Shown here: one piece after another, positions 42,943-64,000 of the stretch
How the letters are laid out: each line of letters starts with the position of its first letter
Numbering within the stretch: the stretch's first letter is position 1
Notes under the pieces: generated by a model
The model's input: only the letters and a program-made list of their open reading frames with translations
Database searches by the model: none
Told to the model about the DNA's origin: nothing
Made by a program: the position numbers and the translations under genes
Assembly: GCF_001677475.2 (NCBI RefSeq)
Contig: NZ_CP015229.1
Reading direction: 5' to 3' (one strand)
DNA from: Escherichia coli
Lineage (GTDB): Bacteria > Pseudomonadota > Gammaproteobacteria > Enterobacterales > Enterobacteriaceae
DNA: 64,000 bases

Positions 42943-42949
<7 letters not shown>

Positions 42950-43554
42950 CAGAACAACAACGTCGCGAACTGGACTGGGAAAAAACTGACGGACTGATGC
43001 CGGTGATTGTTCAACACGCGGTATCTGGCGAAGTGCTAATGCTGGGCTATATGAACCCGGAAGCCTTAGACAAAACCATCGAAAGCGGCAAAGTCACCTT
43101 CTTCTCGCGCACTAAACAGCGACTGTGGACCAAAGGCGAAACGTCGGGTAATTTCCTCAACGTAGTGAGCATTGCGCCGGACTGCGACAACGACACTTTA
43201 TTAGTGCTGGCGAATCCCATCGGCCCGACCTGCCACAAAGGCACCAGCAGCTGCTTCGGTGACACCGCTCACCAGTGGCTGTTCCTCTATCAACTGGAAC
43301 AACTGCTTGCCGAACGTAAATCTGCCGATCCGGAAACCTCCTACACTGCCAAACTGTATGCCAGCGGCACCAAACGCATCGCGCAGAAAGTGGGCGAAGA
43401 AGGCGTGGAAACCGCACTAGCAGCAACGGTACATGACCGCTTTGAGCTGACCAACGAGGCATCTGACTTGATGTATCACCTGCTGGTGCTGTTGCAGGAT
43501 CAGGACCTGGATTTAACGACGGTGATTGAGAACCTGCGTAAACGGCATCAGTGA
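42943..43554 (+). CDS. hisI: Bifunctional phosphoribosyl-AMP cyclohydrolase / phosphoribosyl-ATP pyrophosphatase
   Basis: 203 aa [42 protein letters not shown]... Confidence 0.97.
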
Positions 43555-43566
43555 GTTGCGGGGTAA

Positions 43567-43595
43567 GCGGATGCGATATTGTTGTCGCATCCGGC
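43567..43595. repeat. REP-like inverted repeat
   Basis: GCGGATGCGATATTGTTGTCGCATCCGGC, resembling the GCCGGATGCG REP core. Confidence 0.5.
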
Positions 43596-43638
43596 AAAAA
43601 AAAACGGGCAAGGTGTCACCACCCTGCCCATTTTCTTT
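43596..43638. terminator. Bidirectional rho-independent terminator between convergent hisI and wzzB
   Basis: A9 tract, hairpin GGGCAAGGTGTCACCACCCTGCCC, then ATTTTCTTT; U-rich tail on either strand. Confidence 0.85.
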
Positions 43639-43651
43639 AAAACCGAAAAGA

Positions 43652-44632
43652 TTACTTCGCGTTGTAATTACGCAGAGCGTTACGCCCCAACACAATCCCC
43701 GCGCCAACCATGCCGCCCAGCAGCACCGCCAGAATCAAGGTAATTGCCTTTTTCGGACTATCGCGACGAATAGGTAACGTCGGTTTCATCACATAACGGT
43801 AAGCATGAATATCAAGATCATCAACTTTTAAGCTTTCGATATCCAGCAGGTTTTGACGAGTCTGATAGTAGTTTGGTGAGAACACCAACGGACGGGTCGC
43901 TTCATGTTTAATCATCGACTCCAGCGCTTCGCTACCCAAAAGGAACAACGTATCTTGCGTCACATCTTCAGTCTGCTGAACCTGTGGCTTTGTCACCTGC
44001 GCCTGATTCGCATACTGCAACGCTTCCTGAATCTGACGGATACGCAGATCTTTCTGCTCCTGCGCGACTACTTCCTGCGTTCTTAAAGAGTCCTGCAAGT
44101 TTTTCCGTCCCAGAGCAATGTTGTCTTTGAGATCCTTTTCTAGCTCTTGATTCACTTTATCATCAACTTGCTGAATGTATTGGGCCAACTTCATTTGTGC
44201 GCCCTCTGCAGTTTGCCCAACATAAGAAACAGTCAATGGTAATTGCTGGTTCTTAACAGAAGGTTCGATGGTAAGTTTTTCTGGTTCATCCTGATTATCC
44301 AGCGTTTCTGCTAATGCAGAGAAGGCAGAACTGAAGCGACCAATTAACGTCTCCTGCAAATCCGATACTTTCGGTGCAGCCTGACCATAGATAACATTCA
44401 TGGCATTGTTATAGCCAGCAATTTGCCCCACGTCGGGCTGAGTGATAATTGCTGTTGACGTCCATTTCTCCTTCGCAACTGCCAAATATCCAATAGCCAG
44501 GGCAATAGCCACAATGACGGAAATGATGATTGTCATCTTGCCACGCCACAACTGCACTAGTAAATCAATCAAATCAATCTGTTCTGGGTCATTATTTTGC
44601 CCAGAAACATTATTATTTTCTACTCTCATCAT
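43652..44632 (-). CDS. wzzB: O-antigen chain length determinant (polysaccharide co-polymerase Wzz)
   Basis: MRVENNNVSGQNNDPEQIDLIDLLVQLWRGKMTIIISVIVAIALAIG...; start taken at MRVEN. Confidence 0.95.
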   Translation of the reverse strand: MMRVENNNVSGQNNDPEQIDLIDLLVQLWRGKMTIIISVIVAIALAIGYLAVAKEKWTSTAIITQPDVGQIAGYNNAMNVIYGQAAPKVSDLQETLIGRFSSAFSALAETLDNQDEPEKLTIEPSVKNQQLPLTVSYVGQTAEGAQMKLAQYIQQVDDKVNQELEKDLKDNIALGRKNLQDSLRTQEVVAQEQKDLRIRQIQEALQYANQAQVTKPQVQQTEDVTQDTLFLLGSEALESMIKHEATRPLVFSPNYYQTRQNLLDIESLKVDDLDIHAYRYVMKPTLPIRRDSPKKAITLILAVLLGGMVGAGIVLGRNALRNYNAK

Positions 44633-44774
44633 TACCCTAACTGACGGAAATTTCCAAGTCCGCATAGTTTAGCGATAATCCTCGTGAATGCTATAGGATA
44701 AGTGATAAAAATAATGAATTGTTGCGTAAGTAACAAAAGACAATCAGGGCGTAAATAGCCCTGATAACAAGATG

Positions 44775-45950
<1,176 letters not shown>

Positions 45951-46131
45951 TCAGAATTAACTTAACTGTGAATCATGATGTTTTTAGCATCCTGATAAGA
46001 GTTAAAAGTTTTAACGCTACGTTGTAAGATGGTCAACGCAACGAAAAACAATTCAGATTTTCTTTATAAGAATAGCTGATATTTATTAAGTTAATATTAA
46101 GCAGTGAAATTTAGTCTATAAGATATTTGGC

Positions 46132-46168
46132 AAAAAAAAGCCCGGTGCAATATACGCCGGGCCTCAAT
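46132..46168 (-). terminator. Rho-independent terminator downstream of gnd
   Basis: Minus strand hairpin GGCCCGGCGTATATTGCACCGGGC followed by TTTTTTTT. Confidence 0.8.
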
Positions 46169-46189
46169 TTTATTGTTGATTAAATCAGA

Positions 46190-47596
46190 TTAATCCAGCC
46201 ATTCAGTATGGAACACACCTTCTTTATCAATGCGCTTATAAGTATGCGCACCGAAATAGTCACGCTGTGCCTGGATCAGGTTTGCAGGCAGAACTGCGGC
46301 GCGGTAGCTGTCATAATAGGCAACCGCAGCCGCGAAGGTCGGAACCGGGATACCGTTCTGTACTGCATAAGCAACGACATCACGCAGCGCCTGCTGGTAG
46401 TCATCGGCAATTTGCTTAAAGTACGGAGCCAGCAGCAGGTTAGCGATCTGTGGATTTTCGGCATATGCATCGGTGATTTTCTGCAGGAACTGCGCACGGA
46501 TGATGCAGCCAGCACGGAAAATCTTCGCGATTTCGCCGTAGTTCAGATCCCAGTTGTATTCTTCAGACGCAGCACGCAGCTGAGAGAAGCCCTGAGCGTA
46601 AGAAACGATTTTGCCCAGATACAGCGCACGGCGAACTTTTTCGATGAACTCAGCCTTGTCGCCTGCTGACTGAGCTTGCGGACCAGAGAGAACTTTAGAT
46701 GCGGCAACGCGCTGATCTTTCAGAGAAGAGATATAACGTGCAAACACAGACTCGGTAATCAGCGACAGCGGTTCTCCGAGATCCAGCGCGCTCTGGCTGG
46801 TCCATTTACCGGTACCTTTGTTAGCCGCTTCATCCAGGATCACATCAACCAAGTAGTTACCGTCTTCATCTTTTTTAGTGAAGATGTCTTTGGTGATGTC
46901 GATCAGGTAGCTGCTCAGTTCACCGTTATTCCACTCGGTAAAGGTCTGTGCCAGTTCTTCGTTGGTGAGGTTCAGGCCACCTTTAAGCAGAGAATAGGCT
47001 TCAGCAATCAGTTGCATATCACCGTATTCAATACCGTTGTGAACCATCTTCACATAGTGACCTGCACCATCGGCACCAATATAGGTAACGCATGGCTCCC
47101 CGTCTTCAGCTACTGCGGCGATTTTGGTCAGGATCGGTGCAACCAGTTCATAGGCTTCTTTCTGCCCACCAGGCATAATGGAAGGACCTTTCAGCGCACC
47201 TTCTTCACCGCCGGAAACACCGGTACCAATGAAGTTAAAACCTTCGGCAGAAAGCTCACGATTACGACGAATGGTGTCCTGGAAGAAGGTATTACCACCA
47301 TCAATAATGATGTCACCTTTATCGAGGTATGGCTTGAGGGAATCAATAGCAGCATCCGTGCCTGCACCTGCTTTAACCATTAACAGGATGCGACGAGGCG
47401 TTTCCAGAGATTCAACGAACTCTTTCACCGTATAGTAAGGAACCAGTTTTTTGCCTGGATTTTCGGCAATCACTTCTTCCGTCTTTTCACGGGAACGGTT
47501 GAAAATAGAGACGGTATAACCACGGCTTTCGATGTTAAGCGCAAGATTGCGCCCCATCACTGCCATACCGACTACGCCAATCTGTTGCTTTGACAT
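46190..47596 (-). CDS. gnd: 6-phosphogluconate dehydrogenase (decarboxylating)
   Basis: 468 aa [30 protein letters not shown]... Confidence 0.98.
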
Positions 47597-47787
47597 TGTT
47601 TACTCCTGTCAGGGGGTTACCGCGGGATTGCGCGGCTTGAATATGAAACAGATGTTAACTCAAGTTACATGAATGTGTGTAGTGCTGAATTTCATTAATG
47701 CAACGAATACCGTTCATCTTCCTTTATACAGACATCCACTTGTAACCAAACCTACGCGCACATGTAAGCGAAGATAAATCTATAACA

Positions 47788-49212
47788 TCAAGAAATTAAA
47801 GATATAATACTCCCAAGCACATTCGTAACATATTGCTTAGCCTGATTTTCATCACTGCCTTCAGCGTAACAACGGAGTTCAGGGGCATTTCCGGAAGGAC
47901 GGAGATGTATAATATCACCATTAGTTAAAATAAATCTTGCACCATCAGTTTCATCAATAGTGGAACAGGATAATGATTCATACCCTAATTTATTAAAGAA
48001 ATTATTAGGTGATGAAATGGCATTTTTTATAATTTGCTGACTTGACTCTGAAGGAAAGTTTTTCACTCTATCTGACCAAGTAAATCGCTGTGGAAGATTA
48101 TTAACCAGTTGAGAGATAGTACTATTGCGAGAAGCTATTAAGAGCATTAACGCTGGTAATACTGCATCTCGAGTAGGTAACGCATTTAATTCTTTGCCAT
48201 TAATTTGTAAATCGGAGGCAAGCAGAAAACCGCCATTAGCTTCAAAACCAGCGACTGAATCAAATTGTTTAGCAAGTTCTGAAAACGCTGCAATCACATA
48301 AGGAGAGCCAATTTTAGTCCGTTGTGTATTTGCAAATTTATTAGATTGTTCAATTGCTGTATTACAACTCACTGGAATAGCCAACGCCTTGATATTAAGT
48401 TCAATAGCCGTAAGTAATCCCAGAATATCGCCTCGTAGCCATTCACCATTTTCATCGGCAACTAAAGGGCGATCACCATCACCATCTGTTGAGAAAATTG
48501 CATCGAGATTGTATTTTTTAGACCACTCTCTTGCAAGTAGACGATCTTCTTCGCTAACTGCTTCCGTATCAATAGGAACGAACTCATCACTTCTACCGAG
48601 GGAGATGACCTCAGCACCCAATTGATTAAAAAGTGGAGCATATAAATCTCGTCCTGCACTAGAATGTTCATAGATCCCAATTCTCTTCCCCTTTAAAATA
48701 TCGGAATTAAAAAGAGAAACATAACGTTCTAGGTATGAATCCGCACCTTGAGTACTTGTTTCAAGATGAGGTAATACATCTACAGGAGAAAAAACATATT
48801 CACTATTTACTATTGCTAACTCATCCTCTTTTGTGATTTCACCATCTGGACGGTAAAATTTCAAACCATTACGGTCAAAAGGTATGTGACTACCGGTAAC
48901 CATTATGCAGGGGATGTTTTTCTGCATGGAATAATGAGCTAATGCAGGGGTCGGAATTACACCATGATATTCAACAGCGAACCCATGTTGTTTGATAGCG
49001 AACGCGCATGCCTGAGCAATTTCATAACTACTCGGGCGATTGTCAATGGCTAAAGCAACTTTATTAAAATTGTATTTGTCATCAATAACAGAAAGAAACG
49101 CATGACTGAAGGCTGCACAAACATCATGGGTAAAATCGATGACTAAACCACGAGCACCACTAGTGCCGAAAGCAATATTGCTATCGGTAATGATTTTGTT
49201 AGCATTTAACAT
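47788..49212 (-). CDS. manB: Phosphomannomutase
   Basis: 474 aa alpha-D-phosphohexomutase; active-site TGSHIP and metal-binding DGDGDR. Confidence 0.88.
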   Translation of the reverse strand: MLNANKIITDSNIAFGTSGARGLVIDFTHDVCAAFSHAFLSVIDDKYNFNKVALAIDNRPSSYEIAQACAFAIKQHGFAVEYHGVIPTPALAHYSMQKNIPCIMVTGSHIPFDRNGLKFYRPDGEITKEDELAIVNSEYVFSPVDVLPHLETSTQGADSYLERYVSLFNSDILKGKRIGIYEHSSAGRDLYAPLFNQLGAEVISLGRSDEFVPIDTEAVSEEDRLLAREWSKKYNLDAIFSTDGDGDRPLVADENGEWLRGDILGLLTAIELNIKALAIPVSCNTAIEQSNKFANTQRTKIGSPYVIAAFSELAKQFDSVAGFEANGGFLLASDLQINGKELNALPTRDAVLPALMLLIASRNSTISQLVNNLPQRFTWSDRVKNFPSESSQQIIKNAISSPNNFFNKLGYESLSCSTIDETDGARFILTNGDIIHLRPSGNAPELRCYAEGSDENQAKQYVTNVLGSIISLIS

Positions 49213-49217
49213 GATGA

Positions 49218-49964
49218 TTACTTCTTAATAAATTGAGGAAGTTTGGATAGATTTTTATACGCTAAAGCTATTGGCCAGATAATACCATTCTGTTTCATAG
49301 CGCGAATATCTTCCATTGATTTATTGATCATGGAAGATGCTGAGCGATTGCTAATTCCACCAACACGCATTTTCACTAATACTTTTGGTAAGTAAGCTAT
49401 TGAAATACGCTGTTTTAAAATATAACGTAATAATGAGTCATAATCAGCAGATATTCGGTAATCTAATGAAAAACAACCAAACTCACTATAACAATCGCGT
49501 TTCATATAAAATGATGGGTGTGGCGGCATCCAACCTAGTTTCATCTTCAAACGGCTAAATGAGCCACTCTTCCATAATCTAATACGTTTAGTCGTATCAT
49601 TTTGGGCAACATACTCCAAATCACCATAAACAGCATCACACCCTGAACTTTCAAATGTTTTTACTATATCTGCAATAGCATCGTCATAAGCAAGTAAGTC
49701 ATCAGAGTGCAAAAATCCAATTATATCACCAGAAGCTGCTTGAATACCTTTATTCAGTGCATCATAAATACCATTGTCGGGTTCGCAAATGATTGTTGAA
49801 ACTCTTGTACATTTACTCTTGATTAGCTCTATTGTATTATCTTTCGATGCTCCATCTACAACTATATATTCAATATCTGAATGCGTTTGTTTTTCCAGAG
49901 AGAGTAATGTATCAAGAAGCGTTTTTTCACTATTATAAGTTGCTGTGATAATTGAAATCCGCAT
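49218..49964 (-). CDS. Glycosyltransferase, family 2
   Basis: 248 aa MRISIITATYNSEKTLLDTLLSLEKQTHSDIEYIVVDGASKDNT... (GT-A fold). Confidence 0.8.
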   Translation of the reverse strand: MRISIITATYNSEKTLLDTLLSLEKQTHSDIEYIVVDGASKDNTIELIKSKCTRVSTIICEPDNGIYDALNKGIQAASGDIIGFLHSDDLLAYDDAIADIVKTFESSGCDAVYGDLEYVAQNDTTKRIRLWKSGSFSRLKMKLGWMPPHPSFYMKRDCYSEFGCFSLDYRISADYDSLLRYILKQRISIAYLPKVLVKMRVGGISNRSASSMINKSMEDIRAMKQNGIIWPIALAYKNLSKLPQFIKK

Positions 49965-51370
49965 TAGTATCCAACTCCAGAAGAAGAAACTCTTATAACA
50001 TCATCCTCTTCCAAGTAGACTCCTGATCTAACCTCAATTATTTCAAGTGGGATCTTGCCAGGATTTTCAATGGCATGTGGAACACCAACAGGTATATATG
50101 TTGATTCATTTTCTGAAACAAGATAAGTTTTCTCCTCAAGATGAACTTTAGCTGTCCCCGAAACAACAATCCAATGTTCAGTACGATGGTAATGGATCTG
50201 CTTAGCGGTAATGTGACCCGGTAATACAATCACATGTTTAACCTGAAAGCGTTGCCCTTCAGCTATAGTGTCATGACTGCCCCAAGGACGAAAAATTTCC
50301 CGATGTTGTAAATATTCTGTTCGATTATTCTTTTTAAGCTGAGCTACGATGTTTTTAACTTGCTGAACTTTATCTTTATGAGCAACTAATACTGCATCTT
50401 TCGTTTCAACGACAACCAAATCCTTTACGCCCACGGCACCAATAAGTCTATGCTGCGAATAAAGATAACTATCTGTAGCATCCTCAACCAAAACATCACC
50501 ACGAATGGCATTGCCGCTTTGGTCTTTTGAACTTATTTCCCACAGCGCAGACCATGACCCAACATCACTCCATTGCGCATCCAATGGTACGACTACAGCT
50601 TCTGCTGTTTTTTCCATAACGGCATAGTCGATTGACTCTTCAGGGCAGCAAGAAAAAGAAGAATTATCCAAGCGGATAAAATCTAAATCTTGAGTCGAGG
50701 AAGCTAAGGATTGCTGACAACTCTCTAGAATATCTGGACGGAATTTTTTTAGTTCATCGATGAATACAGATGCTCTGAACATAAACATTCCACTATTCCA
50801 AAGATAACCGCCATCTGACAAATACCGCTGAGCTAATTCTAGCTCTGGCTTTTCAACAAAAGCTGCAACTTTATAACCTTGCCCACTAAGTGGATCACCT
50901 GACTTAATATAGCCATACCCTGTCTCTGGAGCTGTTGGAACAATGCCAAATGTGACCAACTTACCTTGCTGCGCAAACTCCTTCGCGGCCAAAACTGCTG
51001 TAATGAAACTATTCTCATCCTGAATTTCATGGTCAGCCGCAAGAACTAAAAGTATAGGATCCTCTCCACTTGCCGTTGCCTGAAGCGCTGCAAGGGCTAC
51101 AGCTGGTGCCGTATTGCGCCCAACAGGCTCAAGCAAAATCCCACTATGCTTTAAACCAACTTTACGTAATTGTTCAGCAACGATGAAACGATGTGATTCA
51201 TTACAAATGATCAAAGCAGGATTGTGTTCAACCTTTTCTAGCCGTCGCATAGTCTCTTGCAACATAGTTAAGCGGCTATTTAAAGACAGAAATTGTTTCG
51301 GATAAAGTGTACGTGAAAGAGGCCATAATCTGGTACCAGATCCACCGGCCATGACAACGGGAAGTAGCAT
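49964..51370 (-). CDS. manC: Mannose-1-phosphate guanylyltransferase / mannose-6-phosphate isomerase
   Basis: 468 aa [28 protein letters not shown]... with C-terminal cupin. Confidence 0.92.
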   Translation of the reverse strand: MLLPVVMAGGSGTRLWPLSRTLYPKQFLSLNSRLTMLQETMRRLEKVEHNPALIICNESHRFIVAEQLRKVGLKHSGILLEPVGRNTAPAVALAALQATASGEDPILLVLAADHEIQDENSFITAVLAAKEFAQQGKLVTFGIVPTAPETGYGYIKSGDPLSGQGYKVAAFVEKPELELAQRYLSDGGYLWNSGMFMFRASVFIDELKKFRPDILESCQQSLASSTQDLDFIRLDNSSFSCCPEESIDYAVMEKTAEAVVVPLDAQWSDVGSWSALWEISSKDQSGNAIRGDVLVEDATDSYLYSQHRLIGAVGVKDLVVVETKDAVLVAHKDKVQQVKNIVAQLKKNNRTEYLQHREIFRPWGSHDTIAEGQRFQVKHVIVLPGHITAKQIHYHRTEHWIVVSGTAKVHLEEKTYLVSENESTYIPVGVPHAIENPGKIPLEIIEVRSGVYLEEDDVIRVSSSGVGY

Positions 51371-51375
51371 ATCTA

Positions 51376-51837
51376 TTACCTTGATATAAAATAATTTTTG
51401 GTATATTGATGAACTGTAGTGCTATTAAGCAACGTTACTACATCAAACCACTTGTAGGAATTATGCTGAATCGTTGGTAGGCGAAGTTGCTGCGGATTAA
51501 TTTGAATTTCATATCCATGCACTACGTAGTGTGTAGAAAAATCTAGTTCAGAAAAATTGTCATTGTAAAAGTGTTCATACACACCAAGAAATATGGCCTC
51601 ACCAAGACTAGTTTGAACGCCTAACTCTTCATATGTGATCCTTTTAAAAGCATCCTCGAATGACTCGTCCTTAAAAATTCGCCCTCCAGGCACAAACCAA
51701 TAATTTTTTGCGGGGCGATTCAGGCGCTGCCCAAGCAGCGCCTCTCCTTTATCATTTCTAATTATGAGGTCAATCGAGATTAGAGGAGTATGCTTGACTA
51801 TTGTTTTAAATAACTCATATTCTAATCTCTTTTTCAT
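51376..51837 (-). CDS. gmm: GDP-mannose mannosyl hydrolase (Nudix)
   Basis: 153 aa Nudix box GGRIFKDESFEDAFKRITYEELG. Confidence 0.88.
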   Translation of the reverse strand: MKKRLEYELFKTIVKHTPLISIDLIIRNDKGEALLGQRLNRPAKNYWFVPGGRIFKDESFEDAFKRITYEELGVQTSLGEAIFLGVYEHFYNDNFSELDFSTHYVVHGYEIQINPQQLRLPTIQHNSYKWFDVVTLLNSTTVHQYTKNYFISR

Positions 51838-51839
51838 AA

Positions 51840-52805
51840 CTATCCCCGAAAAGAATCAATATTCTCAAGAAACCATTGATATGTTAATGATAGACCTTCA
51901 TGTAAATTATAGCGATGTAGCCAGCCCAAGTTTTTGAGTCGGGTAACGTCCATAAGCTTTCGCGGGGTGCCATCTGGTTTGGTCGCGTCAAAAACAATTT
52001 TTCCTTGATAACCCACTACAGAAGCCATTGTTTCAGCCATTTCACGTATAGAACAATCCACCCCCGTACCAACATTAATATGAGATAACATTGGTTGTGT
52101 ATTTTGTTGATAGATTGTGTCCTCTAACTCCATCACATGAACCGAGGCAGCAGCCATATCATCAACATATAAAAACTCACGCATCGGTGTTCCCGTGCCC
52201 CAGACAATAACTTCTTGTGCACCACTTTCTTTTGCCTCATGGAATCTACGCATAAGCGCCGGAATAACATGGGAGTTTTCAGGATGGAAGTTATCATTCG
52301 AACCATAAAGATTAGTCGGCATTACACTTCTATAATCGCGACCATATTGACGATTATAAGACTCACATAATTTTATGCCCGCAATCTTAGCAATTGCGTA
52401 TGGCTCATTAGTTGGCTCAAGTATGCCCGTCAAAAGTGCAGACTCTTTCATCGGCTGCTCTGCAAATTTTGGATAAATGCAGCTAGAGCCTAAAAAAAGT
52501 AATTTTTGAATTCCAACCTTGTGAGCTGAATGTATAATATTACTCTCAATCATGAGATTCTGATAAATGAATTCTGCTGGAAATGTATTATTGGCATAAA
52601 TACCACCTACTTTTGCCGCAGCAAGATAAACCTGATCAACCCTCTCTCTCTCAAAAAATGCCTCAACATCCTTCTGCACGGTCAGATCGAGTTCTTTGTG
52701 TGTTTTAACCACTAACTCGATATCATCACGCAGCGATAATTGTCGGCAAATAGCAGAGCCAACCATGCCCTGGTGCCCAGCAACATATACTCTTTTCTTT
52801 ATCAT
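51840..52805 (-). CDS. fcl: GDP-L-fucose synthase
   Basis: 321 aa [23 protein letters not shown]... Confidence 0.93.
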
Positions 52806-52808
52806 GTA

Positions 52809-53942
52809 TTAACGCTCCAGAGAAACCGAAACATCATAACCATGGCTTTTAAGAAGTGCATGTTGTTTCGCTTTTAACAAATCGCTAGCAACCATTTCTG
52901 CACACATCTCTTCAACTGTAATCTCTGGTTCCCAGCCTAATAGATTTTTTGCTTTTGCAGGGTCACCTAAGAGTGTTTCAACTTCAGCAGGACGGAAATA
53001 ACGAGGATCAACCCGAACTATAACGTCTCCAACATTTACACCAATAGCACAATCGGAAACTTTATTAACTACTGTGGCTATCTCATCTACACCCTCACCA
53101 GTGAATTCAAGTTCAAGTCCGACTTCTTTAGCAGCCATACGGACAAATTCACGCACAGATATCTGTTTACCTGTGGCGATGACAAAATCCTCTGGATGAT
53201 CTTGCTGAAGCATCATCCATTGCATGCGAACATAATCTTTAGCGTGTCCCCAGTCACGCAACGAATCCAGATTACCCAAATATAAGCATTGTTCGATCCC
53301 CTGAGAAATATTAGCTATTGCACGAGTAATTTTACGAGTAACAAAAGTTTCTCCACGGCGTGGCGATTCATGGTTAAAAAGAATACCATTACAAGCATAT
53401 ATACCATAAGATTCACGGTAGTTAACTGTTATCCAGTAAGCATACATCTTAGCTACAGCATAAGGCGAACGCGGGTAGAATGGAGTTGTTTCACGCTGAG
53501 GAATCTCTTGCACTAAACCAAAAAGTTCTGAAGTAGATGCTTGATAGAAACGTGTTTTTTTCTCCAGCCCACAGATTCGTATTGCTTCTAATAAACGTAA
53601 TGTACCTATTGCATCTACATCTGCTGTATATTCTGGTGACTCGAATGATACTGCGACATGGGATTGTGCACCAAGGTTATAAATTTCATCCGGTTGAATT
53701 TCTTGGATTAAACGGATCAGATTCGATGTATCTGTTAAATCCCCATAGTGTAAAATAAAATTAGGCTCATCAACGAATCGTGATTGATATATATGATCAA
53801 TTCTATCAGTGTTAAATGACGATGCTCGGCGTTTTATACCATGTACTTCATAACCTTTTTCAATAAGAAATTCAGCAAGATATGAACCATCTTGTCCAGT
53901 TACGCCTGTGATAAATGCAACTTTTTTATTCATTTTAATCAT
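52809..53942 (-). CDS. gmd: GDP-mannose 4,6-dehydratase (true start may be 9 nt downstream, at [10 protein letters not shown])
   Basis: 377 aa; [19 protein letters not shown]... SDR-type dehydratase. Confidence 0.95.
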
Positions 53943-53951
53943 GTTATGTTC

Positions 53952-54983
53952 CTAAATATTCAACTCATTATAAACTTTAATCGTTTCATTAACACATTTT
54001 GACCATGAAAATTTTTGCGCCTGCAGTAAACCTCTTTCGATCATAACATTTCTTTTTAAATTAACTAATTCTAAAGCTTCTTTTAACGTAAACTCATTAA
54101 TATCATCAATATAAATAGGCGCATTCCCCCCTACTTCCGGCAACGAGGATGTGTTTGCACAAATAACTGGACATCCGGCCTGCATAGCTTCTAGGACAGG
54201 TATTCCAAACCCCTCATAACTGGAAGGGTAAACAAGTGCATATGCAGTATTATACTGTATATTTAAATCTTCATTACTCAAAAATGTAAAATGTTCATAT
54301 CTATTTTTTAAATATTTTTCAAGGAGTTCTCTTTCATATTTTTTAAGCGAGCCTCCGCCTACAATTGTAAGCTTTAAGCCATGTAATTTCCCTACAGCTT
54401 TGACTGCAAGAACGAAATTTTTATAACCTTCTCTGGCACCGACAAACAAAACTGAATTATTTACTCTCATATCAGATATGTTAGAAATATGTTTATATGA
54501 TGGGGATACACCATTATAAATCACTCTAATTTTATCTTCACTAATTGGACAGTACTTAAGTAAATCTCTAGCAGTGTTGTTTGAAATACAAATTACGATA
54601 TCACTATTCTTGATAGCATGATATTTTTGAAGAGAATGAATAAATTTTGACATTCCTCCCCTGTATTTTTCATAGGTAAAATCATGAACAGTTGTAACAT
54701 TTTTCACATTCAAATTAGGATTTTTATGAACTCGATAATAACTTGAGTGTAAAACCCTAGTTTTAATATCACTTACATTTCTATATCTTTCTAAAATTCT
54801 TGGCTCACGATATTGCAACTTTAAGTCACTTGTATCAAACTCAAATTCTTTATTTTTATACAATAGAATTTCAGCTTGGTAATTTGATTTCACCATTCCT
54901 TGGATCAACTCATTAAAGTATACACTTATTCCACCAAATGATTGGAGATTATAAATAATCCCATCGATAGTTACCATTATCAT
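53952..54983 (-). CDS. Glycosyltransferase, family 4 (GT-B)
   Basis: 343 aa with EGFGIPVLEAMQAGCPVI motif. Confidence 0.82.
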   Translation of the reverse strand: MIMVTIDGIIYNLQSFGGISVYFNELIQGMVKSNYQAEILLYKNKEFEFDTSDLKLQYREPRILERYRNVSDIKTRVLHSSYYRVHKNPNLNVKNVTTVHDFTYEKYRGGMSKFIHSLQKYHAIKNSDIVICISNNTARDLLKYCPISEDKIRVIYNGVSPSYKHISNISDMRVNNSVLFVGAREGYKNFVLAVKAVGKLHGLKLTIVGGGSLKKYERELLEKYLKNRYEHFTFLSNEDLNIQYNTAYALVYPSSYEGFGIPVLEAMQAGCPVICANTSSLPEVGGNAPIYIDDINEFTLKEALELVNLKRNVMIERGLLQAQKFSWSKCVNETIKVYNELNI

Positions 54984-56236
54984 CGCCCTCGCAAGGTAAT
55001 ACGTTCGATTAGAACGAACAATATCAAAAAGAAGATCAGTAACAATACATATGCAGGCCCAGAAAAATAAGTTCCAAATGAAGGTGAAATGAGAATTATA
55101 GAAAGCAAAAAATAGGATGCAGAGTTCGTAATTACTTTTGCATTAAACATTTTAAGCTTAGCAAAAATATAGCCATAAAAGATATTCATAGGTGAAAGAA
55201 AAGTTAAAATGACCAGTCCAACATATCCATAATCAACAAAATTATCCATCCCTTTTGAAAAAGCAGGTGTATGCCCCGACTCTGCAGCTCCTGGATAATA
55301 GATTTCATTTACATGCAGAAATCCATATACAAAAGGTTTATCAGGAAACAAACCTCTCGGTATATAAGACCAAAACTGGCTGAAATAGACTGTGCCATTG
55401 AAAAATTTAACCACACCTTTATCAATATCTTGCAGCAAATAAATACTGTTTTGATACTGGTCAAAATAAGACAATACTACATCGACATTCATATTTCCAA
55501 TAGCTAAAAATAAATTATAGAGAATGGCACACGCTGCCAGAGGTGTAACTAAAATCAGGCCAAATTTTAGAAATCTAGATTTATTAAGACTTAACACTGC
55601 AAGATAAAAAATCGCAAATGAAAGAATAAAGGTTTTCGATCCAAGAAAAAAAACCAAGGTACAATAGAATATCGCGCATAAAAATAATTTTATTTCCGAG
55701 CGTAAAGCCAACGCTCTAGAAAAATAAGATACTGAAAGCATACTTAAAGAAAAGGCATACAAAAAACCATTACCTTCTCGATAGTTTTGATAACCATCCC
55801 TGGGATTCGTCAACCATCCAGAAATACCTATTTCTGACTTTGAAGAAAGAAGAACAAATAATGTAACAAACAGAACCAATGTAATATTTGATATTCTTTT
55901 TAATTTTGTATGCGAAATTAAGCAAGTTAAATAGCTCTCTCTATTTTTGAATATTATATTAAAAATAAAATAAAATAAAATTATAGATAAAACACCCACA
56001 AAAGAGTATATGTTATATATGAATAAAGCCTCATTATAATATTGATTTAACGCAAAGTCTGAACCATAGAAAAGAGGGGCCAGAATATTTTCCAATAGAA
56101 AAACCGGGAATAAAATAATGGCGCAAATGGTAAAGGGATTGATAATTGTAAGTCTTAGCGTTTTCGTCGCTAATAAAGAAAAAGAAAAATATAGTACTAC
56201 AGCGAGTGTAACATTTAAACAATATATTATTACCAC
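54980..56236 (-). CDS. wzy: Putative O-antigen polymerase Wzy
   Basis: 418 aa, about 10-12 predicted TM helices with a large loop; position inside the O-antigen cluster; very AT-rich. Confidence 0.7.
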   Translation of the reverse strand: MVIIYCLNVTLAVVLYFSFSLLATKTLRLTIINPFTICAIILFPVFLLENILAPLFYGSDFALNQYYNEALFIYNIYSFVGVLSIILFYFIFNIIFKNRESYLTCLISHTKLKRISNITLVLFVTLFVLLSSKSEIGISGWLTNPRDGYQNYREGNGFLYAFSLSMLSVSYFSRALALRSEIKLFLCAIFYCTLVFFLGSKTFILSFAIFYLAVLSLNKSRFLKFGLILVTPLAACAILYNLFLAIGNMNVDVVLSYFDQYQNSIYLLQDIDKGVVKFFNGTVYFSQFWSYIPRGLFPDKPFVYGFLHVNEIYYPGAAESGHTPAFSKGMDNFVDYGYVGLVILTFLSPMNIFYGYIFAKLKMFNAKVITNSASYFLLSIILISPSFGTYFSGPAYVLLLIFFLILFVLIERITLRGR

Positions 56237-56246
56237 ATCCTCTCCC

Positions 56247-57056
56247 CTATCTTAAACCGAATAATTTGCGCTTAATTGATTTTGTTTTTTGATATAATGT
56301 TTGAGGAACAATCATTTTAAATAAAACTTGCAATGTATTATAGACAGCAAATTTTATTTTGTATGATAAGGGCATATGAATATTATTTTTAGCTAGAATG
56401 TAAGCAATTTCTTTCTTGACTAATTTTTTATTAGACTCATTTGAACTTACACCCGAAGCATCCATTATGGATACAGGAAAATTCACATAATGCAACGTAG
56501 ATGGATCTATTGTTCTTATCATAAAATCACTATCAGCAGCAATTTTTAGTGTTGTATCAAAGCGATTAGCATTATCTTTAAAAAAGCTAGAATGCTGGAA
56601 AGTACCCTGATGAGGAGGAAGTGAAGGCCGACCACATTCCCACTTTTTCTGTATTTTTCCGTAAACTCCAACTATATTATCTTTATCACTAAAATATACA
56701 TCACCATATATAGTTGTTGCACTCATATTTTCGTGAATGGCATTTGCTATTTTTGAAAGAGTATTATTTTCATAGAATGTATCGCCAGCTCCCATAAAAA
56801 TAACCCAATCGCCATTTATGTGAGGAAGAGCTTTATTCCAAGCGTCGTATATTCCTTGATCAGATTCGCATAAAAAATAATCTATAATATCAATATATCT
56901 ATAAATATATTCTAGTGTTGATTTGTTAGAGTTGCCGTCTATAACAATCCATTGAATATTACAATAATTTTGATTTTTAATAGATTCTGCAGTCTTGCAG
57001 AAATCTTCCTCACAATTATACGTCGATGTTATTATAGTAATCTGTAAGCCATTCAT
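56247..57056 (-). CDS. Glycosyltransferase, family 2
   Basis: 269 aa MNGLQITIITSTYNCEEDFCKTAESIKNQNYCNIQWIVIDGNSN... Confidence 0.8.
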   Translation of the reverse strand: MNGLQITIITSTYNCEEDFCKTAESIKNQNYCNIQWIVIDGNSNKSTLEYIYRYIDIIDYFLCESDQGIYDAWNKALPHINGDWVIFMGAGDTFYENNTLSKIANAIHENMSATTIYGDVYFSDKDNIVGVYGKIQKKWECGRPSLPPHQGTFQHSSFFKDNANRFDTTLKIAADSDFMIRTIDPSTLHYVNFPVSIMDASGVSSNESNKKLVKKEIAYILAKNNIHMPLSYKIKFAVYNTLQVLFKMIVPQTLYQKTKSIKRKLFGLR

Positions 57057-57062
57057 CTTAAC

Positions 57063-57773
57063 TCACTTATTTTTCATAGCAATATATTTTAATCTTAATT
57101 CTTTAATTAATGTCTTTACTTTACTATCAGTGGAATACTCAATATTAAACGTGCCAGAGACTCCTCTTATTTTGGGAATAGTTGTTCCAATAACTCCTTT
57201 TAATTTATTATTTTTAATTTGCTCAAAAAAAATGTGTTCTAAATAAACACCATCAAGGTCACGCACAGATTTATAAGAATTAGCAAAAAAGTCCCAATAT
57301 ATTTTTTTATTTACAACATAAAATCTTGTATCAATCATATTTTCATTCAGAAAAGGAACTGGTATAAAAAAAGCTTTACCATTGAATGCATTTATACATT
57401 GCTTATAATTATCGACGTATAGTTTTGATGTTATTTTTGCAAAACTTTCAGCATTAGACAAATAGCGGCTATTCATTAATGCATACTCAATTATTTCACC
57501 CTCTCCGTAACCTTTACCATAAGATTGAACACTTTCTATATCATTTTTGAAATGTATTATCTCGATCGAATCTTTATTAAGTATTTGTTTATCATTATGA
57601 ATATCTTTCGTCAAATCATAATCACTACCATCACATATTACTATAGAATCAGCATTCTTTGACAACTCTCTTATCGCTTTCAATGTATGTAATAATCTTG
57701 AATTTTCATCAGAAAGATTTGTAAGAGGAGCATTAGGTGAGATACAAGAAGTCACTAATACTGGGATTTTCAT
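57063..57773 (-). CDS. Putative O-antigen glycosyltransferase, family unassigned (236 aa from MKIPVLVTS)
   Basis: ATG overlaps the wzx stop (ATGA); the tracker ORF extends 46 codons further, into wzx; no recognisable GT2/GT4 signature. Confidence 0.55.
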   Translation of the reverse strand: MKIPVLVTSCISPNAPLTNLSDENSRLLHTLKAIRELSKNADSIVICDGSDYDLTKDIHNDKQILNKDSIEIIHFKNDIESVQSYGKGYGEGEIIEYALMNSRYLSNAESFAKITSKLYVDNYKQCINAFNGKAFFIPVPFLNENMIDTRFYVVNKKIYWDFFANSYKSVRDLDGVYLEHIFFEQIKNNKLKGVIGTTIPKIRGVSGTFNIEYSTDSKVKTLIKELRLKYIAMKNK

Positions 57774-59014
57774 TTTTTCTTTTCCAGCCTCAACGAAATT
57801 AACATTAGTATAAAATAATCGACGGTGACTCTTGCGCTCCAAGCATAAGCCACACCTGCTACAGAAAAATACATAATTGAAAAATATAAAACCAGCAGAT
57901 ATGGAATACATTCAACAAGATGAATGAGCCCCGTAATATTTGCATAACCTTTCGATTGGATTTGAGCAAATGGAACTTGAGCAAGAGAGTTGAATACAAA
58001 ACCTACTAATAATATTTGAAATATATAAGGACTCTCAGTGCTATATTGTTTTCCAAGCCATAAAGTTATAATATCACCAGCCTTCAAAGAAAACATAATA
58101 GCTATAACTATACTAGTTACACTTATTAATAACGTAGCCTCTTTTATTATTTTTCTCCGCTCATCTTTTGTATTATTCTTGCATAGAGCAGGAAAAACTG
58201 TCCTTGCTATAGTTGTCGGTAATATAAGTAACTTTGAAATTGCATCTGCAGGAGCAATATATAACGAAGCTTTAGCGGGGCCAACTGCATTTGATAAGAT
58301 AAATCGATCAATATTTGTAAGCAATGGGTTAATTATACTACTAATACTCGCCCATCCTCCAAAACTTAATAGTGCTTTTGTTTTACTTAGACTAAAATCC
58401 ATTGTAAGCCTATTATTTCTAAAAACAAAGAACACGCTTAAAAGAGCACCAACTATTCTCGCAATCACCAATCCCAAAGTAGCATTAAGCAAACCAACAT
58501 TTCCATGAATGAAAATAACTGGTAGTAGCGCAGTTAACACACCTGTAATTGTTTTTTGTACATTCAATAATTTGAACTTTTCATATCCTTCTAATATCCC
58601 CCAACAAACCATATTAAGAAGATAAAATGGCAGACAGTAGGATAAAATACTTATAGCATATGCAACACTTTCAGTTTGTTCCGGACCACTAATTAAGGAT
58701 GCAATCTTATGGTCGCAGTAATAAAAAATTACGGCTACAACAACACCAATAGATAATGTTAATAAAAATGATGTTGTAATTATTTGACTGGTTGCCTTTT
58801 TGTCGTTTTTATTTAATGATATTTCACGCACAACGGCTCGGGAAAGTCCGAGATCAAATATACTTGCGTATCCAACTATTGTAAAAAACATTAAAAAAAA
58901 GCCAAAGTTAGTTATTCCTAACTCCCTTGCCAAATACCCCATCGCAGGTATTGACAATAAAGTTGGGATTGCATACCCAACCAAATTTATTAAACTATTT
59001 ATTTTAATACTCAT
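57770..59014 (-). CDS. wzx: O-antigen flippase Wzx
   Basis: 414 aa, 12-TM polysaccharide-transporter-like, MSIKINSLINLVGYAIPTLLSIPAMGYLAR... Confidence 0.85.
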   Translation of the reverse strand: MSIKINSLINLVGYAIPTLLSIPAMGYLARELGITNFGFFLMFFTIVGYASIFDLGLSRAVVREISLNKNDKKATSQIITTSFLLTLSIGVVVAVIFYYCDHKIASLISGPEQTESVAYAISILSYCLPFYLLNMVCWGILEGYEKFKLLNVQKTITGVLTALLPVIFIHGNVGLLNATLGLVIARIVGALLSVFFVFRNNRLTMDFSLSKTKALLSFGGWASISSIINPLLTNIDRFILSNAVGPAKASLYIAPADAISKLLILPTTIARTVFPALCKNNTKDERRKIIKEATLLISVTSIVIAIMFSLKAGDIITLWLGKQYSTESPYIFQILLVGFVFNSLAQVPFAQIQSKGYANITGLIHLVECIPYLLVLYFSIMYFSVAGVAYAWSARVTVDYFILMLISLRLEKKK

Positions 59015-59031
59015 TTTTTAATTATCTTTTG

Positions 59032-59574
59032 TCAATAATTATTTTGTATAAATGGAGTGCCCAAACAATCTTTTTGTGATAAAAGAGGTTCTTTGTATAA
59101 TTGCCAATCTATGTTAAGTAAAGCATCATTCCAAATGATACATTTCTCATGTTCTTTTGAGTAAAAATTATTGGTCTTATACAATATTTCTGAACCTTCT
59201 TCTTTTACATAAAAACCATGTGCAAATCCCTCAGGGATCCACAACTGGCGCTTATTCTCAGCAGATAAATTCACCCCAACCCACTTGCCAAAAGTAGGTG
59301 ACGATTTACGAATATCAACCGCAACATCAAAAACCTCACCAACAACGCAACGTACCAATTTCCCTTGCGCATAAGGTTCTAACTGATAATGCAGCCCGCG
59401 TAAAACACCTTTACTAGACTTCGAATGGTTATCCTGGACAAATTCAACCTTACGTCCTACAGCTTCTTCGAATACTTTCTGATTAAAGCTTTCCATAAAG
59501 AAACCACGCTCATCACCAAAAACTTTCGGCTCGAAAATTAACACATCAGGAATTTCTGTTTTAATTACGTTCAT
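59032..59574 (-). CDS. rmlC: dTDP-4-dehydrorhamnose 3,5-epimerase
   Basis: 180 aa MNVIKTEIPDVLIFEPKVFGDERGFFMESF... Confidence 0.95.
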   Translation of the reverse strand: MNVIKTEIPDVLIFEPKVFGDERGFFMESFNQKVFEEAVGRKVEFVQDNHSKSSKGVLRGLHYQLEPYAQGKLVRCVVGEVFDVAVDIRKSSPTFGKWVGVNLSAENKRQLWIPEGFAHGFYVKEEGSEILYKTNNFYSKEHEKCIIWNDALLNIDWQLYKEPLLSQKDCLGTPFIQNNY

Positions 59575-59578
59575 TTTA

Positions 59579-60457
59579 TTAATAACCTTTAATCATTTTC
59601 AGCAGATACTGTCCATAAGCATTTTTTTTCAGCGGCTCCGCTAATGCTTTCACCTGTTCAGCATCAATAAACCCTTTACGGTAAGCAATTTCTTCTGGGC
59701 AGGAAACCTTTAGTCCCTGGCGCTCTTCAATGGTGGCAATGAAGTTGCTTGCTTCAATAAGACTCTGATGTGTCCCCGTATCCAGCCATGCATAACCACG
59801 CCCCATCATGGCAACGGATAAACGCCCCTGTTCCATATAAATACGGTTAATATCGGTAATTTCCAGTTCACCACGGGCAGAAGGCTTAAGGTTTTTCGCC
59901 ATTTCGACAACGTCGTTATCATAGAAATAAAGCCCGGTTACCGCATAATTACTTTTTGGTTGTAGCGGTTTTTCTTCCAGGCAGATCGCCGTACCGTTTT
60001 TATCAAACTCAACGACACCGTAGCGTTCAGGATCATTAACGTGATAGGCAAATACCGTTGCACCACTTTCTTTGTTAACAGCGACATCCATTAACTTCGG
60101 CAGATCATGACCGTAGAAGATATTATCACCAAGAACCAAAGCACAATCATCACCACCGATAAACTCTTCACCGATAATAAACGCCTGCGCAAGCCCATCT
60201 GGAGTCGGTTGCACTTTGTACTGAAGATTTAGCCCCCACTGGCTACCGTCACCCAGCAGTTGTTGAAAACGAGGAGTATCCTGTGGCGTACTAATAATCA
60301 GAATATCGCGAATACCCGCCAACATCAGTGTAGAGAGCGGGTAATAGATCATCGGCTTATCATAAATAGGTAATAGCTGTTTACTGACAGCCATAGTCAC
60401 AGGATAAAGACGTGTACCAGAACCACCCGCTAAAATAATACCTTTACGCGTTTTCAT
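59579..60457 (-). CDS. rmlA: Glucose-1-phosphate thymidylyltransferase
   Basis: 292 aa [42 protein letters not shown]... Confidence 0.97.
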
Positions 60458-60514
60458 TTCATCATTCCTTTTAATTCATCTTGCTCCACCATCACGAACA
60501 AGATGCAAAAACTA

Positions 60515-62499: not shown

Positions 62500-62573
62500 T
62501 TAATTATTCCATATTACTTCAGAGCATGCTGTGAAATAAGCGGCTCTTAGTTTGATTAATAGAGGTATTAATG

Positions 62574-62612
62574 CACGCTACCGCCCCTGGCTTTACAGCT
62601 ACCAGAGCACTG
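62574..62612 (-). promoter_or_regulatory. JUMPstart element with ops (RfaH-dependent antitermination site) in the O-antigen operon leader
   Basis: Minus strand reads CAGTGCTCTGGTAGCTGTAAAGCCAGGGGCGGTAGCGTG; ops core GGCGGTAGCGTG. Confidence 0.9.
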
Positions 62613-62870
62613 CATGCATGCCTACGATGTGACGAGCGTTACCCACTCGCGCTAAACCCGAAAAATTCAAACACTAATTGTCTTACCAATCCGCTCTGGA
62701 AACAAGGAAAATCCTGGAAAACTTTGACTAAAATCCTATTGCTAACTCGTTGTTATCCTGATTGTTTATATAAAACAACGGCAGGAATATTCGCAACAAA
62801 TTACTTTCGCCACGAATCTTCACTGCCGTTATAATTTTCTTATCAACCGTTACATTCGGTCAGATTTTCA

Positions 62871-63764: not shown

Positions 63765-64000
63765 TATTTCATCCACCTGTAAAATGGTTGCTGAATTATA
63801 GCTTGTTCGATTTTTTTCGCCAGCATCAATTACCCTGAATTGATTACTGAATTACTTTTGATGTTACGCCGCTTCGTTGTGGATTGCAGTAGCATTGTTC
63901 CTAAGTATGGCTCCATTTTTCCAGGAATGGTCGCAAATCTACTCCCTCCGTTCCGGCAATCTAAAGTTAATCTTTTCCACATTAACAATATGGTGATTTA

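What the first reader, a model, noticed from the sequence alone, without database searches (positions are those of the whole stretch)
43567..43638. REP-like palindrome plus bidirectional terminator between hisI and wzzB
A REP-like inverted repeat is followed by a GC-rich hairpin flanked by an A9 tract on one side and a T-rich tract on the other, giving terminator structure in both directions for the convergent his operon and wzzB.
Basis: seen in the sequence. Interest (0 to 1): 0.2.

Follow-up and report, generated by a model that had tools for sequence, protein, structure and literature searches.

The report
Shared his/wzzB terminator plus REP-like hairpin
The short gap between the histidine operon and the convergent wzzB gene holds one hairpin that can stop transcription from both sides and a second hairpin that is a worn relative of E. 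coli's common REP repeats; both are real, ordinary and already described.

Summary
The 97-bp hisIE/wzzB spacer (43555-43651) holds two hairpins.

Hairpin B (43606-43629) lies between an A9 run and ATTTTCTTT. It has the layout of a bidirectional Rho-independent terminator.
- It is strong in the wzzB direction: 10 continuous pairs, -20.8 kcal/mol, then U9.
- It is weaker in the his direction: an A.C mismatch, -15.4 kcal/mol, then AUUUUCUUU.
- Two published E. coli K-12 data sets place the wzzB RNA 3' end in the orthologous U-tract (2097269/70). Neither lists a his-strand end.
- Eleven of 12 other Enterobacteriaceae loci with wzz convergent on hisIE have a symmetric A-tract/hairpin/T-tract there.

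Hairpin A (43568-43593) is a perfect 9-bp palindrome. It shares the tail TCGCATCCGGCA with canonical REPs but fails REP membership: single copy, no GTAG, no internal mismatch, and a REP profile matches only the tail (E 0.27). About 19% of E. coli genomes, and E. albertii, carry a canonical two-REP block next to it, bounded by a 10-bp direct repeat.

A "convergently functional" his terminator paper (1985) and REP indels at hisI-wzz (2011) are published. Verdict: supported, already known, low interest.

The parts
43552..43554 (+). hisIE stop codon (TGA); end of the his operon coding sequence
   Evidence: ORF 42943-43554. It is annotated hisIE in matching E. coli records.
43568..43593 (.). Hairpin A: a perfect 9-bp palindrome, CGGATGCGA-tattgttg-TCGCATCCG. 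It is a REP-related, symmetric, single-copy element that starts 13 nt after the hisIE stop.
   Evidence: One search gives the inverted repeat. One search gives RNA folds of -18.9 kcal/mol (+) and -14.9 (-), with 0 of 200 shuffles as good; the REP profile matches only 43584-43596; single copy per genome; 2 stem pairs change on both sides among alleles.
43585..43594 (.). TCGCATCCGG: the 10-bp sequence that occurs twice in long alleles, at the end of hairpin A and at the end of the third REP, and so bounds the 85-bp two-REP indel
   Evidence: Comparison of short and long alleles.
43596..43604 (.). A9 run on the + strand, which is the U9 tail of the wzzB terminator on the - strand. By homology with K-12 the wzzB RNA 3' end falls near 43601, the 4th U.
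   Evidence: sequence. K-12 3' ends at 2097270 (Term-seq) and 2097269 (SMRT-Cappable-seq). The run varies from A7 to A10 among strains.
43606..43629 (.). Hairpin B: GGGCAAGGTG-tcac-CACCCTGCCC, the shared terminator stem-loop. On the + strand it forms 5 bp, an A.C mismatch and 4 bp. On the - strand it forms 10 continuous pairs, including one G.U.
   Evidence: -15.4 kcal/mol (+) and -20.8 (-); scanned as a terminator on the - strand; 95% column identity among E. coli alleles.
43630..43638 (+). ATTTTCTTT: the U-rich tail of the his-direction terminator. On the - strand it is the A-rich tract that pairs with U9.
   Evidence: Tail scores are: -2.43 in the window and -4.55 in K-12, which has TTTTTCTTT.
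43652..43654 (-). wzzB stop codon (TAA on the - strand)
   Evidence: ORF 43652-44665 on the - strand. It is annotated wzzB in matching records.

Best explanation
The convergent hisIE/wzzB spacer carries two independent hairpins.

Hairpin B (43606-43629) is a single Rho-independent terminator used from both sides. Its A9 run and T-rich tract each serve as the U-tail for one direction.
- RNA polymerase coming from wzzB transcribes a 10-11-pair hairpin followed by U9 and releases there. This step is shown in vivo for the K-12 ortholog.
- Polymerase coming from the his operon transcribes the complementary hairpin, weakened by one A.C mismatch, followed by AUUUUCUUU. This step is inferred from structure, conservation of the layout and literature, and termination is probably less efficient.

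Hairpin A (43568-43593) is not a terminator, because no U-tract follows it on either strand. It is a symmetric, single-copy relative of the REP family.
- It marks a site where a canonical two-REP block (BIME) is present in some lineages and absent in others.
- The short allele seen here most likely arose by deletion between the 10-bp direct repeat TCGCATCCGG.
- On his mRNA it lies upstream of the terminator and probably acts as an extra barrier to 3'-to-5' exonucleases. That role is inferred, not tested.
For: - Anatomy and stability on both strands.
- The - strand passes the terminator scan.
- TransTermHP-style scores are -12.4 hairpin / -2.43 tail on the + strand and -14.6 / -3.31 on the - strand.
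- K-12 Term-seq gives a dominant 3' end at 2097270 (-), the 4th U after the orthologous hairpin. It has 72,130 reads in LB and 47,946 in M63 (PMC7815308).
- K-12 SMRT-Cappable-seq gives a monocistronic wzzB transcript from 2098331 to 2097269. In M9, 96 of 248 reads end there and 12 pass through (PMC6131387).
- Among loci from other Enterobacteriaceae with wzz convergent on hisIE, 11 of 12 have a symmetric A-tract/GC-hairpin/T-tract between hisIE and wzz, with unrelated stems.
[quoted passage not shown] That it concerns the his operon terminator is from my own knowledge.
- For hairpin A, long alleles carry hairpin A plus an 85-bp two-REP block bounded by TCGCATCCGG. That block is a dispersed repeat with a median of 12 places per genome, and it aligns with K-12 malE-malF and lamB-malM BIMEs.
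- The long allele is in about 1047 of 5426 genomes and in E. albertii.
- REP-containing indels at hisI-wzz are published (PMC3158064).
Against: - No + strand (his) 3' end near the terminator is listed in either K-12 data set. This is a weak negative. Term-seq peaks within 100 bp were merged to the strongest, and the 7.4-kb his transcript is poorly suited to full-length reads.
- The + strand hairpin fails the simple scan.
- In this window an A separates the stem from the U-run, giving a borderline tail score of -2.43.
- In M9, 53 wzzB reads end within 50 bp beyond the terminator, so termination in that direction is not perfectly sharp.
- A Rho-dependent region antisense to hisF/hisI at 2096632 (supplementary file 2) implies that some antisense transcription passes or starts beyond the terminator.
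- The direction of the indel, deletion versus insertion, is inferred only from the outgroup and the direct repeat.
Confidence: 0.85

Rival explanations
1. Hairpin B is in effect a one-way terminator for wzzB only. His-operon transcription would end by another route, such as head-on polymerase collision in the overlap zone, Rho acting on antisense-wzzB RNA, or 3' trimming back to hairpin A or B.
For: - Only the - strand passes the scan.
- The hairpin is 5.4 kcal/mol weaker on the + strand and its tail is interrupted.
- No + strand 3' end is listed in two K-12 data sets.
- Collision-driven termination between convergent E. coli genes has been described.
Against: - A -15.4 kcal/mol hairpin followed by 7 U in 9 nt is within the usual range for working intrinsic terminators. 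K-12 has UUUUUCUUU with a tail score of -4.55.
- The symmetric layout is conserved at this junction in other genera.
- The classical his terminator work reports function in both orientations (own knowledge; the citation was verified).
- The negative 3'-end data are weak.
Confidence: 0.12
2. Hairpin A is a bona fide active REP: a member of the family that the RAYT transposase recognises and that binds gyrase, IHF or Pol I. It would not be a degenerate relative.
For: - It has the shared tail TCGCATCCGGCA and the head CGGATGCG.
- Its overall length is 34-35 nt.
- It sits tail-to-tail next to a canonical REP in long alleles, with a 5-6-nt linker as in BIMEs.
- One allele (L085) has GTAGG at its 5' side.
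Against: - It is single copy at the 41-nt level.
- The REP profile matches only model positions 23-35, at 9.1 bits and E 0.27, while true REPs at the same site score 22-27 bits.
- It has GTAA, not GTAG, in the window, and CTGA in other alleles.
- Its stem is perfect and symmetric, without the conserved internal mismatch.
Confidence: 0.1
3. Hairpin A is a chance palindrome with no relation to REPs and no function.
For: The REP profile hit is not significant (E 0.27). The element is single copy.
Against: - It is the best REP-profile site in 64 kb.
- Its right arm is identical to the end of the canonical REP that flanks the indel in long alleles.
- The stem is kept through two double changes among alleles.
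- No shuffle folds as well.
Confidence: 0.03

Closest known systems
The bidirectional ("convergently functional") Rho-independent terminator at the end of the his operon of Salmonella typhimurium and E. coli K-12 (Carlomagno, Riccio and Bruni 1985, J Bacteriol 163:362; Carlomagno et al. 1988, J Mol Biol)
   Same: - Same position, after the last his gene and facing the convergent chain-length gene.
- Same layout of an A-tract, a GC hairpin and a T-tract.
- The K-12 sequence differs from the window by 4 differences in the 97-bp spacer (a 2-nt shorter A run, A7 versus A9, plus two single-base substitutions).
   Different: Nothing essential. This allele has A9 where K-12 has A7, ATTTTCTTT where K-12 has TTTTTCTTT, and one stem base of hairpin A differs. 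I could not read the papers, so their content is from memory.
Overlapping bidirectional terminators between convergent E. coli gene pairs (Ju, Li and Liu 2019, SEnd-seq; collision model in bioRxiv 10.1101/2022.10.23.513370)
   Same: A convergent gene pair with a shared stem-loop, so the transcripts from the two sides overlap across the hairpin.
   Different: The preprint says that class does not resemble intrinsic terminators and needs polymerase collisions. This site has canonical U-tracts on both strands, so collisions are not needed to explain it.
REP / BIME repeats of E. coli (consensus GCCGGATGCGGCGTGAACGCCTTATCCGGCCTAC), and the REP-containing indels reported in the hisI-wzz spacer of O157 strains (Iguchi et al. 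2011, PMC3158064)
   Same: - Hairpin A shares the REP head and tail.
- It is extragenic at the 3' end of an operon.
- In long alleles it adjoins a canonical REP pair.
- The present/absent polymorphism I found matches the published description.
   Different: Hairpin A is single copy and perfectly symmetric. It lacks GTAG and the internal mismatch, and it does not match a REP profile over its full length.
REPs within 15 nt of a stop codon that lower translation of the upstream gene by stalling ribosomes (Liang, Rudd and Deutscher 2015, as summarised in PMC12306157)
   Same: The stem of hairpin A starts 13 nt after the hisIE stop codon, which is inside the 15-nt limit.
   Different: The effect was shown for canonical REPs. 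Nothing here tests it for hisIE.

Membership tests
Intrinsic (Rho-independent) terminator, bidirectional type | GC-rich stem-loop of about 5-14 bp with a 3-8-nt loop on each transcribed strand | tested here: met
   The + strand forms 5 bp, an A.C mismatch and 4 bp with a 4-nt loop, at -15.4 kcal/mol. The - strand forms 10 continuous pairs at -20.8 kcal/mol.
Intrinsic (Rho-independent) terminator, bidirectional type | U-rich tract directly 3' of the stem on both strands, which appears as an A-tract on one side of the DNA and a T-tract on the other | tested here: met
   On the - strand the stem is followed by G then U9. On the + strand it is followed by A then UUUUCUUU. The + strand tail is interrupted and borderline, with a score of -2.43.
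Intrinsic (Rho-independent) terminator, bidirectional type | Sits just downstream of the stop codons of two convergent genes | tested here: met
   There are 51 nt between the hisIE stop and the stem, and 22 nt between the wzzB stop and the stem.
Intrinsic (Rho-independent) terminator, bidirectional type | RNA 3' ends map in the U-tract in vivo, wzzB strand | tested here: met
   This holds for the K-12 ortholog, in published data read here: 2097270 (Term-seq) and 2097269 (SMRT-Cappable-seq). It has not been measured in this strain.
Intrinsic (Rho-independent) terminator, bidirectional type | RNA 3' ends map in the U-tract in vivo, his strand | tested here: inconclusive
   No + strand end at 20972xx-20973xx appears in either data set. 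Peak merging within 100 bp and the long operon make this a weak negative.
Intrinsic (Rho-independent) terminator, bidirectional type | Termination with RNA polymerase alone, independent of Rho | not testable with these tools
   This needs in vitro transcription or Rho inhibition at this site.
REP / BIME (hairpin A) | Dispersed in many copies per genome | tested here: not met
   The 41-nt hairpin A query found a median of 1 place per genome and at most 2, at E up to 10. The 85-bp insert of long alleles found a median of 12. Matches shorter than about 18 nt could not be seen in a database of this size.
REP / BIME (hairpin A) | Full-length match to the roughly 35-nt REP consensus | tested here: not met
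   A profile built from 9 canonical K-12 REPs matches only 43584-43596 (model positions 23-35), at 9.1 bits and E 0.27. REPs in long alleles score 22-27 bits over the full length.
REP / BIME (hairpin A) | Imperfect palindrome with a conserved internal mismatch that gives the element an orientation | tested here: not met
   The stem is 9 bp, perfect and symmetric. Both arms are of the CGCATCCG type.
REP / BIME (hairpin A) | GTAG tetranucleotide at the 5' side | tested here: not met
   The window has GTAA. Other alleles have CTGA, and one (L085) has GTAG.
REP / BIME (hairpin A) | Extragenic, often at operon 3' ends, and clustered with other REPs in alternating orientation | tested here: inconclusive
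   It is extragenic at the his 3' end. In long alleles it lies tail-to-tail with a canonical REP across a 5-6-nt linker. In this window it stands alone.

The most novel reading that the evidence does not exclude
Hairpin A is more than a relic. It would be a symmetrised REP derivative kept by selection, and it would do two jobs on his mRNA:
- Block 3' exonucleases just upstream of a leaky terminator.
- Damp HisIE synthesis by stalling the terminating ribosome, because its stem begins 13 nt after the stop codon.

Its palindrome and the TCGCATCCGG repeat would also make the site a recurrent breakpoint. That would cover gain and loss of the two-REP block, loop inversion (seen in 18 genomes), and recombination at the edge of the O-antigen locus.
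Probability: 0.15. Interest if true: 0.3.

Novelty: already known. Interest (0 to 1): 0.1.

Why it matters
It matters little beyond correct annotation. The site sets the 3' boundaries of the his operon and of wzzB and keeps each from being read antisense. Its two directions differ in strength, which is useful to know for anyone engineering the O-antigen locus or reusing this terminator. The REP-related hairpin and its present/absent neighbour block mark the his-side edge of the O-antigen recombination region, as already noted for O157 strains.

Tried and rejected
- **Rfam scan of 43000-44200.** Only sub-threshold chance hits were found, for example DapZ at 20 bits against a gathering score of 56 (E 1). 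No known RNA family is present.
- **K-12 RefSeq annotation as a test for a curated REP.** The copy held here shows no REP features at all across 50 kb, so it could not be used.
- **Canonical REPs elsewhere.** None were found in the window or in the K-12 his/O-antigen 50 kb. I took REP examples from the K-12 mal region instead.
- **Papers not held.** These were Carlomagno 1985 (PMC219122), Alifano 1996 (PMC239417) and Ju 2019 (PMC6814526). A his-operon review held nothing on the terminator.
- **Supplements with no usable data.** These were PMC9023263, PMC12207403, PMC12306157, PMC4161252 and PMC6061677.
- **Full-text search for the hairpin B sequence.** It found only a Shigella vaccine paper, which I did not pursue.
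- **Hairpin A as a terminator.** I rejected this because no U-tract follows it on either strand.
- **Covariation in hairpin B within E. coli.** It is uninformative because the stem is nearly invariant.

Full report
**What is there**

The window's hisIE ORF ends with TGA at 43552-43554 on the + strand. The wzzB ORF ends with TAA at 43652-43654 on the - strand. Matching E. coli records annotate the two genes in the same way. The 97-bp spacer reads as follows:
- 13 nt of unpaired sequence.
- Hairpin A: CGGATGCGA-tattgttg-TCGCATCCG, 43568-43593.
- GC.
- A9, 43596-43604.
- C.
- Hairpin B: GGGCAAGGTG-tcac-CACCCTGCCC, 43606-43629.
- ATTTTCTTT, 43630-43638.
- AAAACCGAAAAGA.

**Is it more than chance?**

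- The 116-nt region folds far better than shuffles on both strands, with z scores of -4.6 and -5.9 and 0 of 200 shuffles as stable.
- Hairpin A alone gives -18.9 kcal/mol as + strand RNA and -14.9 as - strand RNA.
- Hairpin B alone gives -15.4 (+) and -20.8 (-). With its flanking tracts the - strand reaches -28.5, z -8.6.
- Perfect inverted repeats of at least 9 bp give 17 stem/loop records at nine sites in the 64-kb window, against a mean of 1.6 in shuffles. The class is enriched, and this one is not unique.

**Hairpin B as a terminator**

The two strands are not equivalent.

| | wzzB strand (-) | his strand (+) |
|---|---|---|
| Stem | 10 continuous pairs; position 43611/43624 is a G.U pair | same position is an A.C mismatch, splitting the stem into 5 + 4 pairs |
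| Tail | G then U9 | A then UUUUCUUU |
| Simple scan | called | not called |
| TransTermHP-style hairpin / tail score | -14.6 / -3.31 | -12.4 / -2.43 |

The pair energies for those scores are quoted. The tail formula is from my memory of Kingsford 2007. K-12 has TTTTTCTTT on the his side and scores -4.55 there.

So the structure exists in both directions. It is strong toward wzzB and moderate toward his.

**In vivo evidence from published K-12 data**

The K-12 spacer has the same layout, with A7 in place of A9.
- Term-seq (Adams et al. 2021, PMC7815308, supplementary file 1) lists a dominant 3' end at 2097270 on the - strand, in LB at OD 0.4 (72,130 reads) and in M63 (47,946 reads). The printed flanking sequence places it at the 4th U after the hairpin.
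- The authors class that end as "antisense to hisI". defines a primary 3' end as one less than 50 bp downstream of its gene. This end lies 51 nt past the wzzB stop and 45 nt past the hisI stop.
- SMRT-Cappable-seq (Yan et al. 2018, PMC6131387, Supplementary Data 1) independently lists a monocistronic wzzB transcript from 2098331 to 2097269. In M9 there are 248 reads at the start site, 96 ending at the site, 12 passing through, and 53 ending within 50 bp beyond it. In rich medium the numbers are 89, 40, 25 and 1.
- Neither list has a forward-strand end at 20972xx-20973xx. This is a weak negative, because Term-seq peaks within 100 bp were reduced to the strongest one.
- Supplementary file 2 of the Term-seq paper lists a Rho termination region at 2096632 (-), antisense to hisF/hisI. 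Some antisense RNA therefore exists beyond the terminator.

**Comparison across genera**

A scan for HisIE relatives returned 80 loci. Twelve of them, from other Enterobacteriaceae, have a wzz homologue converging on hisIE. Eleven of those 12 have a symmetric A-tract/GC-hairpin/T-tract between hisIE and wzz, for example AAAAAAACCGGGCaagGCCCGGTTTTTTT in Pseudocitrobacter and Pseudescherichia. The stems are unrelated between genera. The architecture is therefore conserved while the sequence turns over, as expected for a shared terminator. None of these loci has anything like hairpin A.

**What hairpin A is**

- *Alleles.* E. coli genomes carry two alleles of this spacer. The short allele (this window, K-12) has hairpin A followed directly by the A-run. 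The long allele has hairpin A and then an extra 85 bp...GCCCGATGCGCAAGCTTATCGGGCCTAC, a 16-nt linker, and GTAGGC(C/T)GGATAAGATGCGCCAGCATCGCATCCGG. The A-run and hairpin B follow.
- *The insert is a REP pair.* The 85 bp is a dispersed repeat found in 5425 of 5426 genomes at a median of 12 places each. It aligns with the head-to-head REP pairs (BIMEs) of K-12 malE-malF and lamB-malM.
- *Indel boundary and frequency.* The indel is bounded by the 10-bp direct repeat TCGCATCCGG. About 1047 of 5426 genomes have the long allele, and so does E. albertii. I infer that the long form is older and that the short form arose by deletion between the direct repeats. This is not proven.
- *Already published.* REP-containing indels in the hisI-wzz spacer, and that spacer as a recombination junction, were reported for O157 strains by Iguchi et al. 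2011.
- *Fails REP membership.* Hairpin A is single copy at the 41-nt level. A profile built from nine canonical K-12 REPs finds the REPs of the long alleles over their full length (22-27 bits, E 2e-5 to 8e-7). In the window it matches only the 13-nt tail at 43584-43596 (9.1 bits, E 0.27). That is the best site in the window but is not significant.
- *Other missing features.* The 5' flank is GTAA in the window, CTGA in other alleles, and GTAG in one. The stem is perfect and symmetric: both arms are of the CGCATCCG type, without the internal mismatch that gives a REP its orientation.
- *Stem maintenance.* Among 11 distinct alleles the stem is kept in 86% of cells, and two pairs change on both sides (C-G to U-A, A-U to G-C). 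This could reflect selection, or self-templated correction within a palindrome.

I therefore call it a REP-related, symmetrised relic. "REP-like" is the right wording and "a REP" would not be.

**How it most likely works**

- *Shown for the K-12 ortholog.* wzzB transcripts end in the U-tract after hairpin B.
- *Inferred.* His-operon transcripts end at the complementary hairpin and its U-rich tail with lower efficiency. Hairpin A lies upstream of that terminator on his mRNA and would add a second block to 3' exonucleases, which is a known role of REPs (cited).
- *Speculative.* The stem of hairpin A starts 13 nt after the hisIE stop. That is within the 15-nt range in which canonical REPs were reported to reduce translation of the upstream gene.
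- On the wzzB transcript, hairpin A lies beyond the terminator and is made only on read-through. The 53 M9 reads ending within 50 bp past the site could end there, but this cannot be resolved from the table.

**Comparison with what is known, and novelty**

The terminator corresponds to the "convergently functional" his terminator of Salmonella (Carlomagno et al. 1985). The citation was verified, but the paper is not held, so its content is from my memory. The same group's 1988 comparison covered E. coli K-12. The site also belongs with the overlapping bidirectional terminators of convergent E. coli genes, although canonical U-tracts make polymerase collisions unnecessary here. The REP polymorphism is published. 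Nothing here is new in kind.

**Verdict**

The only caveat is that the his direction is predicted, not measured. The finding is already known and its interest is low.

Noticed in passing
window 43577-43584 (loop of hairpin A); L004 2112-2207: The 8-nt loop of hairpin A is inverted in some strains. The window has TATTGTTG and many strains have TGTTGTTG. E. coli SCPM-O-B-8794 has CAACAACA, the exact reverse complement, between identical stems. The flipped form occurs in 18 of 5426 complete E. coli genomes.
   Followed up: partly
window 43596-43604: The A-run, which is the U-tail of the wzzB terminator, varies in length among E. coli strains. It is A7 in K-12, A8 in most strains sampled, A9 here and A10 in EC17CM2, as expected for homopolymer slippage.
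   Followed up: no
window 44743-44765 (- strand): A terminator-like hairpin, ATCAGGGC...GCCCTGAT followed by TGTCTTTTGT, lies in the ugd-wzzB spacer just downstream of ugd. In K-12, wzzB has its own start site at 2098331, about window 44662, and is transcribed alone.
   Followed up: no
window about 44574 and 44620 (- strand; K-12 2098243 and 2098289): K-12 Term-seq lists strong "internal" 3' ends 12 to 58 nt inside the wzzB coding sequence. This hints at premature termination or a short 5' RNA at the start of wzzB.
   Followed up: no
window about 42963 (- strand; K-12 2096632): A published Rho-dependent termination region lies antisense to the hisF/hisI junction. So - strand RNA reaches or starts about 640 nt beyond the wzzB terminator (supplementary file 2).
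   Followed up: no
window 44000-64000: The O-antigen gene cluster next to wzzB is of the O36 family (wzx and wzy annotated as such in matching genomes). The best match among complete E. coli genomes is 98.1% (strain E06), and only 8 genomes cover at least 80% of the 20 kb. No complete genome matched the 401-bp his/wzzB junction better than 98.3%.
   Followed up: no
L003 (E. albertii NBRC 107761) 2205-2240: The E. albertii contig ends inside the last REP of the long allele, a typical assembly break at a repeat. Its hairpin A is partly decayed (CCGGATGCG...CCGCCCCCGG).
   Followed up: no
L087 (E. coli F637) 251-504: In this strain the spacer is conserved only through hairpin A. It then runs into AT-rich foreign sequence with an acyltransferase gene in place of wzzB. 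This suggests a recombination or replacement breakpoint right at the palindrome.
   Followed up: no
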